From NCBI RefSeq assembly GCF_013122565.1, contig NZ_CP053258.1: a DNA stretch of 64,000 nt; one strand, written 5' to 3'. The stretch's first letter is position 1; each line of letters opens with the position of its first letter. Of the stretch, positions 61,401-64,000 are shown one piece after another. The DNA is from Escherichia coli (GTDB taxonomy: Bacteria; Pseudomonadota; Gammaproteobacteria; Enterobacterales; Enterobacteriaceae). Made by a program: the position numbers.

Positions 61401-64000
61401 CCAGGCGAGTGCGGGAGCGACGTTAACTGTCACCTACCAGGGCTGTGCTGATGCCGGTTTCTGTTATCCGCCAGAAACCAAAACCGTTCCGTTAAGCGAA
61501 GTGGTCGCCAACAACGCAGCGTCACAGCCTGTGTCTGTTCCGCAGCAAGAGCAGCCCACCGCGCAATTGCCCTTTTCCGCGCTCTGGGCGTTGTTGATCG
61601 GTATTGGTATCGCCTTTACGCCATGCGTGCTGCCAATGTACCCACTAATTTCTGGCATCGTGCTGGGCGGTAAACAGCGGCTTTCCACTGCCAGGGCATT
61701 GTTGCTGACCTTTATTTATGTGCAGGGGATGGCGCTGACTTACACGGCACTGGGTCTGGTGGTTGCCGCCGCAGGGTTACAGTTCCAGGCGGCGCTACAG
61801 CACCCATACGTGCTCATTGGCCTCGCCATCGTCTTTACCTTGCTGGCGATGTCAATGTTTGGCTTGTTTACTCTGCAACTCCCCTCTTCGCTGCAAACGC
61901 GCCTCACGCTGATGAGCAATCGCCAACAGGGCGGCTCACCTGGCGGTGTGTTTATTATGGGGGCGATTGCCGGACTGATCTGTTCACCATGCACCACCGC
62001 ACCGCTTAGCGCGATTCTGCTGTATATCGCCCAAAGCGGAAACATGTGGCTGGGCGGCGGCACGCTTTATCTCTATGCGTTGGGCATGGGCCTGCCGCTG
62101 ATGCTAATTACCATCTTTGGTAACCGCTTGCTGCCGAAAAGCGGCCCGTGGATGGAACAAGTCAAAACCGCGTTTGGTTTTGTGATCCTCGCACTGCCGG
62201 TCTTCCTGCTGGAGCGAGTGATTGGTGATATATGGGGATTACGCTTGTGGTCGGCGCTTGGTGTCGCCTTCTTTGGCTGGGCCTTTATCACCAGCCTACA
62301 GGCCAAACGCGGCTGGATGCGCGTGGTGCAAATAATCCTGCTGGCAGCGGCATTGGTTAGCGTACGCCCACTTCAGGATTGGGCATTTGGTGCGACGCAT
62401 ACCGCGCAAACTCAGACGCATCTCAACTTTACGCAAATAAAAACGGTAGATGAGTTAAATCAGGCGCTCGTTGAAGCCAAAGGCAAACCGGTGATGTTAG
62501 ATCTCTATGCCGACTGGTGCGTCGCCTGTAAAGAGTTTGAGAAATACACCTTCAGCGACCCGCAGGTGCAAAAAGCGTTAGCAGACACGGTCTTACTTCA
62601 AGCCAACGTCACTGCTAACGACGCCCAAGATGTGGCGCTGTTAAAGCATCTTAATGTCCTTGGCCTACCGACAATTCTCTTTTTTGACGGACAAGGCCAG
62701 GAGCATCCACAAGCACGCGTCACGGGCTTTATGGATGCTGAAACCTTCAGCGCACATTTGCGCGATCGCCAACCGTGAACGACACTTGCAGTGGGAAAGA
62801 CGGAGGAAAATAGCGTGCAACGTGAAGATGTACTGGGAGAAGCCCTGAAATTATTAGAATTACAAGGGATTGCCAACACCACGCTGGAGATGGTTGCTGA
62901 ACGTGTGGATTATCCACTGGACGAGCTGCGCCGCTTCTGGCCAGACAAAGAGGCAATCCTCTACGATGCGCTGCGTTATCTTAGCCAACAGATAGATGTC
63001 TGGCGTCGTCAGCTGATGCTGGACGAAACGCAAACCGCCGAACAAAAGCTGCTGGCACGTTATCAGGCGTTATCGGAGTGCGTTAAAAACAACCGCTATC
63101 CGGGCTGTCTATTTATCGCTGCCTGTACGTTTTATCCCGATCCTGGCCACCCTATTCATCAACTGGCCGATCAGCAAAAAAGCGCGGCCTACGATTTCAC
63201 CCACGAACTGTTAACCACGCTGGAAGTTGACGATCCGGCGATGGTAGCAAAGCAGATGGAACTGGTGCTGGAAGGCTGTTTAAGCCGAATGCTGGTGAAT
63301 CGTAGCCAGGCGGATGTCGACACCGCACATCGGCTGGCGGAAGATATCCTGCGCTTCGCCCGCTGCCGCCAGGGTGGCGCACTGACCTGACAGAAACACA
63401 GAAAAGAAGCGATTTGCCGCAATCTTAAGCAGTTGAATCGCTTTTACTGAAATTAGGTTGACGAGATGTGCAGATTACGGTTTAATGCGCCCCGTTGCCC
63501 GGATAGCTCAGTCGGTAGAGCAGGGGATTGAAAATCCCCGTGTCCTTGGTTCGATTCCGAGTCCGGGCACCAAATTCATATAAACGGACCTCCACGGAGG
63601 TCCGTTTTTCGTTTCAGGACGCCACGATTTAAGCGTTCTGCCTACAAATCAATTCTCCCGAACTCAACCAGATTCTCCCCACATCACCAGCATTTTGCGG
63701 GTATATCCCAATTAGGGAAAATTTGTTCCTGAGCGATAGCACTGACTGACGTGAAATGTCGTGCGGCCCCGTGATGCTGTTGAACGTCAAATGACGTCAT
63801 CAGGAGCGTAACGCATCCATAAAGCACAACACCGGTCTGAACGGCGACTGATGAGATTTTCTGAATGAGAACAAAGAGAAATTTATCAGTCCGCTTGCTC
63901 ATGCAAAGACTAACAATCCATTAAAATAGTAAGCGCTCCGGACAATTTTCCATGGATTATTTTCTGAACATTTTTCTTTGGCAAAGATGATGAATTTTGA

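What the first reader, a model, noticed from the sequence alone, without database searches (positions are those of the whole stretch)
63497..64000. pheU is an island-integration hotspot; its 3' flank here shows no integrase within 428 bp
tRNA-Phe genes are classic insertion sites for pathogenicity islands. Here pheU is followed by its own terminator and about 400 bp with only one short anonymous ORF (63684-63902, minus strand). No integrase start and no duplicated tRNA 3' end are visible, so the site may be unoccupied, but the window ends too soon to be sure.
Basis: partly seen in the sequence, partly recalled or inferred. Interest (0 to 1): 0.3.

Follow-up and report, generated by a model that had tools for sequence, protein, structure and literature searches.

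The report
Empty pheU site with integrase fossil
The tRNA-Phe gene pheU at the end of this Escherichia coli window has no island inserted, but the 428 bases after it are the decayed remains of an old island's integrase gene (the K-12 pseudogene yjdQ), an ordinary feature that is already annotated.

Summary
pheU (63497-63572, +) is real, and the site holds no intact island. The 428 bp after it align without gaps to the pheU-cadC spacer of E. coli K-12 and of 3,725 of 5,426 complete E. coli genomes. A near-clonal relative (1 mismatch in the last 3.4 kb) has the cadC ATG 189 bp past the window end.

The flank is not virgin DNA. All of it is a fossil of a P4-type ("intP4") island:
- 63736-63768: the first 11 integrase codons, with ATG mutated to ATA.
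- 63770-63932: integrase codons 359-420 fused directly to the above, frameshifted (K-12 yjdQ/b4654; PGAP "integrase, frameshifted, missing N-terminus").
- 63933-64000: DNA that follows the integrase gene in intact islands.

The same deletion junction occurs in E. whittamii and two other divergent Escherichia lineages, so the scar predates E. coli. The 19-bp att core in pheU is intact. About 31% of complete E. coli genomes carry an island there, with the scar pushed to the far end next to cadC. The 72-aa minus-strand ORF is antisense noise.

Verdict: already known, low interest.

The parts
63458..63486 (+). Probable pheU sigma-70 promoter: TTGACG (63458-63463), 17-bp spacer, TTTAAT (63481-63486), followed by the GC-rich discriminator GCGCCCCG.
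   Evidence: Read directly from the sequence; inference only. The scan tool did not list it, because it requires A at position 2 of the -10 hexamer. The region from 63449 onward is shared with K-12 pheV.
63497..63572 (+). pheU, the tRNA-Phe(GAA) gene.
   Evidence: ARAGORN; Rfam RF00005 at 68.3 bits. The dsbD-dicD-pheU synteny matches E. coli K-12.
63554..63572 (+). Intact 19-bp att core, the 3' end of pheU that is duplicated as attR in occupied genomes.
   Evidence: The attR copies in TUM18530 (L008) and L017 begin with ATTCCGAGTCCGGGCACCA. The right-junction match in occupied genomes starts at 63550-63552. The core occurs only once in the window. A 19-bp/23-bp attR is reported for intP4 pheV islands (PMC11537424).
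63573..63735 (+). Left arm of a P4-type (intP4) island, the DNA between the tRNA and the integrase start codon. It carries 10-bp and 22-bp deletions relative to intact islands.
   Evidence: 63301-63705 is 97% identical to the left end of the CFT073 pheU island (the same match in KE51). Window 63449-63729, which also spans the pheV/pheU upstream region and the tRNA, matches the CFT073 pheV island left end at 88% with indels. The empty pheV flank of K-12 loses homology 8 nt after the tRNA. The arm alone has 9,863 places in 5,412 genomes. Alignment A2.
63582..63607 (+). Intrinsic-terminator hairpin (11-bp stem, ACGG loop, then TTTTCGTTT). It now ends the pheU transcript and is island-borne in origin.
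   Evidence: dG -18.4 kcal/mol, z -4.5. Among 80 Enterobacteriaceae species, this hairpin follows pheU in the Escherichia loci that carry the island-type arm (L034-L037, L039). Outside Escherichia it appears where an integrase of this family, or a fragment of one, follows (L081, L093, L110, L113) and in one Citrobacter locus with no integrase hit (L041). All other species have an AACCC(G/A)CC...GG(C/T)GGGTTTTTGCTTT-type terminator like the one at K-12 pheV.
63736..63768 (+). Integrase 5' remnant: codons 1-11, with the start codon ATG mutated to ATA.
   Evidence: tblastn: IALTDVKCRAA against MALTDAKIRAA, 8 of 11 identical, E = 0.07 alone. DNA match of 63729-63767 to L007 6564-6602, E = 0.002. 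It sits at the position expected from the arm alignment.
63770..63932 (+). Integrase 3' remnant, equal to K-12 pseudogene yjdQ (b4654): codons 359-420. It has a roughly 15-nt deletion that removes the catalytic-Tyr segment (NGVRA-AY), a 14-bp deletion, in-frame stops and a frameshift.
   Evidence: tblastn E = 1e-10 for 359-391 plus 397-420 (repeated). K-12 yjdQ maps here. PGAP integrase pseudogene at 63770-63929 equivalent. Alignment A2.
63933..64000 (+). DNA homologous to the sequence that follows the integrase stop codon in intact islands, a degenerate post-int hairpin region. It runs off the window end.
   Evidence: blastn of the near-clonal relative L004 against the KE51 island: window-equivalent 63762-64073 matches L007 7637-7973 at 69% identity, E = 4e-45. 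The cadC ATG lies at 64189 equivalent.
63684..63902 (-). It is most likely not a gene and lies antisense to the integrase fossil.
   Evidence: No Pfam hit. Intact in E. coli, but amino-acid changes are frequent (up to 7 of 72). Broken by stops or frameshifts in E. whittamii and in strain SCPM-O-B-8794.

Best explanation
This is the ordinary 'empty' pheU locus of Escherichia coli (dsbD-dicD-pheU-[yjdQ scar]-cadC).

How it works:
- pheU is transcribed from its own promoter. Its transcript ends at a hairpin that was brought in by a P4-type (intP4) genomic island, which integrated into the 3' end of pheU in an ancestor of E. coli and its sister species.
- That island has since been lost except for about 500 bp: its left arm, the first 11 codons of its integrase fused by a roughly 1-kb internal deletion to the last 62 codons or so, and about 140 bp of DNA that follows the integrase gene.
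- The fossil is inert. It has no start codon, no arm-binding or central domain, and the HxxR and Tyr catalytic segments are gone.
- The 19-bp att core inside pheU is intact, so the site can still receive islands.

In about a third of sequenced E. coli a present-day island sits between pheU and the scar. In this window none does, and cadC most likely begins 189 bp past the window end.

Shown: the anatomy, the homology, the colinearity and the population frequencies. Inferred: the order of historical events, the use of the terminator and promoter, and the sequence beyond 64000.
For: - Colinearity with the empty-site alleles: (no gaps over 521 columns); 3,725 of 5,426 genomes cover at least 80% of 63200-64000 in one place.
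- Annotation: K-12 yjdQ; PGAP integrase pseudogene.
- Integrase homology. The reference integrase has Arm-DNA-bind_3, Phage_int_M and Phage_integrase domains.
- The arm and hairpin travel with islands: they are absent from the empty pheV flank of K-12, present after pheV in CFT073, present on both sides of the CFT073 pheU island, repeated 1-4 times per genome, and outside Escherichia found almost only where an integrase of this family or a fragment follows.
- Age: the same junction is found in E. whittamii, Escherichia sp. E1V33 and strain SCPM-O-B-8794.
- cadC downstream: seen in near-clonal L004/L021 and in every empty-site genome fetched (the spacer is always 616 bp).
- Literature: the pheU site is defined as yjdC-cadC, and pheU and pheV islands share one integrase (PMC7686366); K-12, W and B are listed as having no element at pheU (PMC3032704).
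Against: - The window's own sequence beyond 64000 is unknown. A contig that is 100% identical (Logan SRR11451224, L005) stops inside pheU.
- No attR or displaced native terminator of the ancient island was found within 15.6 kb downstream in the relative, so the original extent of the island is unknown.
- Terminator and promoter function are predicted, not measured.
- The 11-codon N-terminal remnant is weak on its own (E = 0.07) and rests mainly on its position.
Confidence: 0.9

Rival explanations
1. An island is present, and its integrase or att repeat lies just beyond position 64000.
For: The window ends 189 bp before the expected cadC start, so that stretch is unread. About 31% of complete E. 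coli genomes carry something at pheU. A few genomes carry an IS1 inside this spacer (H5-H9).
Against: Islands of this family insert at the 19-bp core inside pheU, so island DNA would start at 63573 with an intact integrase gene about 198 nt later. Here the flank is the empty-site allele throughout, and there is no second att core. The near-clonal relative runs straight into cadC.
Confidence: 0.04
2. The integrase fossil marks the left end of an ancient island that was domesticated, and whose cargo was the block cadCBA-dtpC-lysU(-ghoST). On this reading the site is 'occupied' by a fixed island rather than empty.
For: - The fossil has the position and orientation of an island left end, and island homology runs to within 116 bp of the cadC ATG.
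- cadC follows pheU only in Escherichia among 80 Enterobacteriaceae species.
- GC content is 41.8% for cadC and 35% for ghoST, 47.3% for the fetched relative locus as a whole (dsbD end to fumB start), against 51.1% for the window.
- E. coli E69 goes from pheU to yjdJ without this block, and an O8:H- strain lacking about 10 kb (lysU-yjdL-cadABC) is described in PMC3408504.
Against: - No attR or displaced native terminator exists anywhere in the 15.6 kb downstream.
- Present-day islands insert between pheU and whatever lies downstream, so a scar next to cadC is expected even if cadC was already there.
- The right flank of pheU is non-syntenic in every genus, so absence elsewhere is weak evidence.
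Confidence: 0.12
3. The 72-aa minus-strand ORF (63684-63902) is a real small protein gene and the functional content of the spacer.
For: The ORF is open in all E. coli examined, and some gene callers report it (L011 and L018, 72 aa).
Against: No family hit. It is antisense to a recognisable integrase fossil. Up to 7 of 72 residues differ among E. coli sequences. It is interrupted by stops or frameshifts in E. whittamii and SCPM-O-B-8794. It is not annotated in K-12 or by PGAP.
Confidence: 0.03

Closest known systems
yjdQ (b4654) pseudogene in the pheU-cadC spacer of E. coli K-12 MG1655
   Same: Same position, strand and sequence. The window aligns without gaps, with a handful of substitutions. 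It is the same integrase C-terminal fragment that PGAP annotates in thousands of genomes.
   Different: Nothing of substance. The K-12 annotation covers only the 3' remnant (63770-63932). The 11-codon 5' remnant, the island arm and the post-int DNA described here are not annotated.
intP4-type integrases of pheV/pheU genomic islands (for example PAI-CFT073-pheV and PAI-CFT073-pheU, WP_001218870 and WP_001218845)
   Same: The fossil aligns to codons 1-11 and 359-420 of these integrases, and its arm is 88-97% identical to theirs. It uses the same 19-bp att core (PMC11537424).
   Different: About 83% of the gene is deleted, the start codon is lost, and the catalytic HxxR and Tyr segments are missing. 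The remaining coding DNA is only about 70% identical to the modern integrases, so it derives from an older or different member of the family.
Other decayed P4-type integrase genes next to tRNA genes in K-12 (for example intB of KpLE2 at leuX, from general knowledge and PMC3032704)
   Same: An integrase pseudogene directly downstream of, and co-oriented with, a tRNA gene that serves as the att site.
   Different: KpLE2 keeps its cargo and most of its integrase gene. Here only about 500 bp survive and no cargo can be assigned.

Membership tests
tRNA-Phe gene pheU of E. coli | Cloverleaf with GAA anticodon, scoring above the Rfam tRNA threshold. | tested here: met
   ARAGORN; RF00005 at 68.3 bits against a gathering score of 29.
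tRNA-Phe gene pheU of E. coli | Located between dicD (yjdC) and cadC, which distinguishes it from pheV (yqgA-pheV-yghD). | tested here: met
   dsbD-dicD lies upstream in the window. The downstream spacer is identical in layout to K-12. cadC itself is seen only in relatives.
Occupied tRNA-integrated genomic island (intP4 island at pheU) | An intact tyrosine integrase gene starting about 200 nt after the tRNA. | tested here: not met
   Only codons 1-11 and 359-420 remain, with ATA in place of ATG, stops and frameshifts.
Occupied tRNA-integrated genomic island (intP4 island at pheU) | A direct repeat of the tRNA 3' end (attR, 19-23 bp) at the far end. | tested here: not met
   None in the window, and none within 15.6 kb downstream in the near-clonal relative.
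Occupied tRNA-integrated genomic island (intP4 island at pheU) | Cargo DNA absent from empty-site strains. | tested here: not met
   The flank is colinear with the empty-site allele of K-12, C and 06-00048, without gaps.
Functional P4-type tyrosine integrase | N-terminal arm-DNA-binding domain (PF13356) and central domain (PF22022). | tested here: not met
   Both are present in the reference integrase. In the window, codons 12-358 are deleted, and Pfam finds nothing in the remnant.
Functional P4-type tyrosine integrase | Catalytic domain with the HxxR motif and the nucleophilic Tyr. | tested here: not met
   HGFR (reference residues 341-344) lies in the deleted part. The Tyr segment NGVRAAY is removed by a short deletion (about 15 nt).
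Integrase-derived pseudogene (yjdQ) | Significant similarity to an integrase C-terminus at the orthologous position. | tested here: met
   tblastn E = 1e-10. Positional orthology to K-12 b4654.
Rho-independent terminator | A stable GC-rich hairpin followed by a U-run directly downstream of the gene. | tested here: met
   11-bp stem, dG -18.4 kcal/mol, z -4.5, followed by UUUUUCGUUU. Termination in vivo cannot be tested with these tools.

The most novel reading that the evidence does not exclude
The integrase fossil is the left boundary of an ancient pheU island that brought the lysine-decarboxylase acid-resistance locus (cadCBA, perhaps with dtpC, lysU and ghoST) into the Escherichia lineage. 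The island was then fixed and lost its mobility functions and its right-end repeat.
Probability: 0.12. Interest if true: 0.4.

Novelty: already known. Interest (0 to 1): 0.1.

Why it matters
It matters little. The locus is the standard empty pheU site, and the integrase fragment is already annotated (yjdQ in K-12; a PGAP pseudogene in thousands of genomes).

Three practical points follow:
- 'Empty' tRNA att sites can still carry island-derived DNA, including the terminator that now serves the tRNA. An integrase hit next to pheU is therefore not evidence of an island.
- Occupancy of this site can be decided from the first 130-200 nt after the tRNA, without long flanks.
- The shared deletion junction is a convenient marker that predates the split of E. 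coli from E. whittamii and related lineages.

Tried and rejected
- Pfam scan of the remnant peptide and of the 72-aa ORF found nothing. The fragment is too short and decayed for a profile, and direct tblastn with an intact island integrase was needed.
- I tried to read past the window end by exact-protein look-ups. The window's DsbD allele is rare (3 contigs). The contig that is 100% identical ends 12 nt into pheU. The relative's CadC allele is too common to trace to the same sample (38,033 blocks). The relative's DtpC allele led only to the same relative plus more distant genomes at 98.2-98.6% identity. The window's own continuation therefore remains unread.
- I searched for an attR or a displaced native terminator of the ancient island in 15.6 kb downstream of pheU in the relative, and found only chance-level matches.
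- Literature searches for 'yjdQ' and 'b4654' found no relevant paper.
- The weak Rfam flpD hit at 62455-62500 (19.3 bits against a gathering score of 40) was dismissed as chance.
- I considered a DNA-pattern scan of genome contigs for the deletion junction.

Full report
**What is at the coordinates**

The end of the window reads dsbD (61081-62778), dicD/yjdC (62815-63390), then a tRNA-Phe(GAA) gene at 63497-63572 on the + strand (ARAGORN; Rfam tRNA 68.3 bits). This is the pheU context of E. coli.

- A hairpin with an 11-bp stem followed by a T-run lies at 63582-63607. As RNA it folds at -18.4 kcal/mol, z = -4.5 against shuffles.
- The 72-aa ORF at 63684-63902 on the minus strand exists as a mechanical ORF.
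- No copy of the pheU 3' end occurs downstream. The 19-mer att core occurs once in the whole window, even allowing 3 mismatches.

**The flank is the empty-site allele**

The 601 bases 63400-64000 match thousands of complete E. coli genomes at 96-99% identity. The annotated features under the match are 'tRNA-Phe' and 'integrase'.

- In strains 06-00048, C and K-12 the order is dicD, pheU, a 160-bp integrase pseudogene, then cadC-cadB-cadA. K-12 names the pseudogene yjdQ (b4654).
- A four-way alignment shows the window colinear with these genomes, without a single gap, from pheU to position 64000.
- The tRNA-to-cadC spacer is 616 bp in every empty-site genome checked. This places the cadC ATG at window-equivalent 64189.

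**What lies beyond the window**

The window's own continuation could not be obtained.

- Its DsbD allele is rare, with only three contigs in the gene-position collection.
- One of these, NCBI GCA_018578885.1 (L004/L021), differs from the window at 30 of 12,920 positions. Twenty-nine of those lie in one patch (55890-60546), and only one lies after it (63714). This contig continues into cadC, cadB, cadA, dtpC, lysS/U, ghoTS, yjdJI and dcuSR.
- A Logan contig that is 100% identical over 10.6 kb ends 12 nt into pheU.

Independently of that, an island using this att site would begin immediately after the tRNA. The fact that 428 bp of empty-site allele follow pheU already excludes a canonical insertion.

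**The flank is an integrase fossil, not anonymous spacer**

Occupied genomes were found among the low-coverage hits. In E. coli KE51, pheU is followed 198 nt later by an intact 420-aa tyrosine integrase with Arm-DNA-bind_3, Phage_int_M and Phage_integrase domains. tblastn of this protein against the window end gives:

| Integrase codons | Window coordinates | Note |
|---|---|---|
| 1-11 | 63736-63768 | IALTDVKCRAA against MALTDAKIRAA; start codon now ATA |
| 359-391 | 63770-63853 | RDAVERQM... |
| 397-420 | 63855-63926 | ...AKTNNPLK, then stop; different frame |

The joint E-value for the last two pieces is 1e-10. The CFT073 pheV-island integrase gives the same result.

- The integrase gene has therefore lost codons 12-358 in one internal deletion. 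The remainder carries a roughly 15-nt deletion that removes the catalytic-Tyr segment, a 14-bp deletion, in-frame stops and a frameshift (alignment A2).
- DNA homology to the island continues past the integrase stop codon to window-equivalent 64073 in the relative, 116 bp before the cadC ATG.

**The terminator and the first 130-160 nt are island DNA too**

- Window 63301-63705 is 97% identical to the left junction of the CFT073 pheU island, and KE51 gives the same match.
- CFT073's pheV island has the same arm directly after pheV.
- The empty pheV site of K-12 loses homology 8 nt after the tRNA and has a different terminator.
- In CFT073 the stretch 63550-63705 is present on both sides of the pheU island: after pheU, and again after attR next to the yjdQ scar and cadC.
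- The arm without the tRNA has 9,863 places in 5,412 genomes.

A scan of one genome per species with DicD as the anchor returned 80 Enterobacteriaceae loci.

- In most genera pheU is followed by a terminator of the type AACCC(G/A)CC...GG(C/T)GGGTTTTTGCTTT, like the one at K-12 pheV.
- The window's hairpin AACGGACCTCCACGGAGGTCCGTTTTT appears in the Escherichia loci with the island-type arm (L034-L037, L039).
- Outside Escherichia it appears where an integrase of this family follows at +196 (Leclercia, Trabulsiella, Klebsiella spallanzanii; 75-76% aa identity), next to an integrase fragment in Raoultella planticola, and in one Citrobacter amalonaticus locus with no integrase hit.

**Age of the scar**

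E. whittamii, Escherichia sp. E1V33 and a divergent strain labelled E. coli SCPM-O-B-8794 are 91-94% identical to the relative across this region. All carry pheU-scar-cadC with the same codon-11/codon-359 junction. The smaller deletions differ between lineages. The primary deletion therefore predates the divergence of these lineages from E. coli, and decay has continued independently since then.

E. albertii has the arm and more of the integrase 5' end, but its contig ends too soon to say more.

**Population picture**

- Of 5,426 complete E. coli genomes, 3,725 cover at least 80% of 63200-64000 in one place.
- The rest match either 63200-63705 (left junction) or 63550-64000 (right junction, starting inside the tRNA 3' end). 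About 31% are therefore interrupted at the att site. This is an upper estimate, because large IS insertions would also split the match.
- attR in the TUM18530 locus (L008) and in L017 is the 19-mer ATTCCGAGTCCGGGCACCA. This agrees with the 19/23-bp repeats reported for intP4 pheV islands (PMC11537424).
- The literature defines the pheU site as yjdC-cadC and notes that pheV and pheU islands share one integrase (PMC7686366). It also lists K-12, W and B as having no element at pheU (PMC3032704).

**The 72-aa ORF**

It lies antisense to the fossil and has no family hit. It is open in all E. coli examined, but with up to 7 of 72 residues changed. It is interrupted by stops or frameshifts in E. whittamii and SCPM-O-B-8794. 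Some gene callers report it, but K-12 and PGAP do not. I regard it as not a gene.

**Mechanism, with what is shown and what is inferred**

Shown:
- the anatomy of the scar;
- its homology to intP4 islands;
- the intact att core;
- colinearity with empty-site genomes;
- the tandem arrangement (pheU, island, attR, scar, cadC) in occupied genomes.

Inferred:
- An intP4-type island integrated at pheU in an Escherichia ancestor and displaced the native terminator. It was then reduced to about 500 bp.
- pheU is now transcribed from TTGACG-17-TTTAAT (63458-63486) and terminated at the island hairpin.
- The site remains a usable attB.
- The arm of the E. coli scar is 97% identical to modern island arms, while the integrase remnant is only about 70% identical. 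This may reflect repeated integration and excision, or recombination within the roughly 150-bp direct repeat. I did not test this.

**The more novel reading**

The fossil could mark the left end of a domesticated island whose cargo is cadCBA-dtpC-lysU.

For it:
- cadC follows pheU only in Escherichia among the 80 species.
- GC content is low: cadC 41.8%, ghoTS 35%, and 47.3% for the fetched relative locus as a whole, against 51.1% for the window.
- Strain E69 goes from pheU to yjdJ without this block, and an O8:H- strain lacking the block is reported (PMC3408504).

Against it:
- There is no attR or native-terminator relic within 15.6 kb.
- Any island inserting at pheU ends up next to whatever was already downstream, so adjacency proves little.
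- The right flank of pheU is non-syntenic in all genera.

I give this reading about 12%.

**Verdict**

The site has no intact island and almost certainly runs into cadC, but it is a scarred site rather than a virgin one. The feature is already annotated and unremarkable: novelty 'already known', interest about 0.1.

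Noticed in passing
L009-L013 and L016, about position 2371 (pheU); compare window 63559: Loci that share the relative's CadC allele, including a 5.46-Mb chromosome (CP028659.1, L011), carry a G-to-A change in the pheU T-loop (GGTTCAATTCC instead of GGTTCGATTCC). This alters the att-site region just 5' of the 19-bp core.
   Followed up: no
L038 (E. coli E69, CP089930.1) 10759-18000: This strain represents a separate species cluster. It has no scar and no cadCBA-dtpC-lysU after pheU. Instead it has a different terminator, a putative endonuclease plus a DNA cytosine-5 methyltransferase (219 and 386 aa), then yjdJ/yjdI remnants and a 1,322-aa autotransporter-like ORF.
   Followed up: partly
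L034 and L035 10573-12725, and many other genera in L040-L113: E. whittamii, Escherichia sp. E1V33 and many other Enterobacteriaceae species have 1.5-2.2 kb of extra DNA between dicD and pheU that E. coli and this window lack (tRNA at about 12215-12850 of the locus rather than 10683).
   Followed up: no
window 55890-60546: Twenty-nine of the 30 differences between the window and its closest relative (GCA_018578885.1) cluster in this 4.7-kb stretch (yjeH to dcuA). This looks like a recombination patch in an otherwise near-clonal pair. Logan contig SRR11451224_177 is identical to the window here.
   Followed up: partly
window 44000-64000: No complete RefSeq E. coli genome is closer than 99.1% over these 20 kb, and the DsbD allele occurs on only three contigs of the large gene collection. 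The window comes from a rarely sequenced E. coli lineage.
   Followed up: partly
one search hits H5-H9 (window-equivalent 63400-64000): Several E. coli genomes carry an IS1 copy inserted inside the pheU-cadC scar. The spacer can therefore be interrupted without an island at the att site.
   Followed up: no
L005 and L006 (ending at window-equivalent 63508), and many species-representative contigs: Short-read assemblies often break inside or just after pheU. This is probably because the tRNA (pheU/pheV) and the island arm are repeated, which limits occupancy calls from draft genomes.
   Followed up: no
window 35079-35498 (minus strand): Three tandem tRNA-Gly(GCC) genes, the glyVXY cluster. They are ordinary.
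   Followed up: no
window 51514-51659 and 52798-52944: Two short stretches (about 145 bp each) do not align with E. coli 06-00048 in an otherwise colinear region. The 20-kb query has 35-38 places in each of the listed genomes, which suggests REP-type repeats.
   Followed up: no
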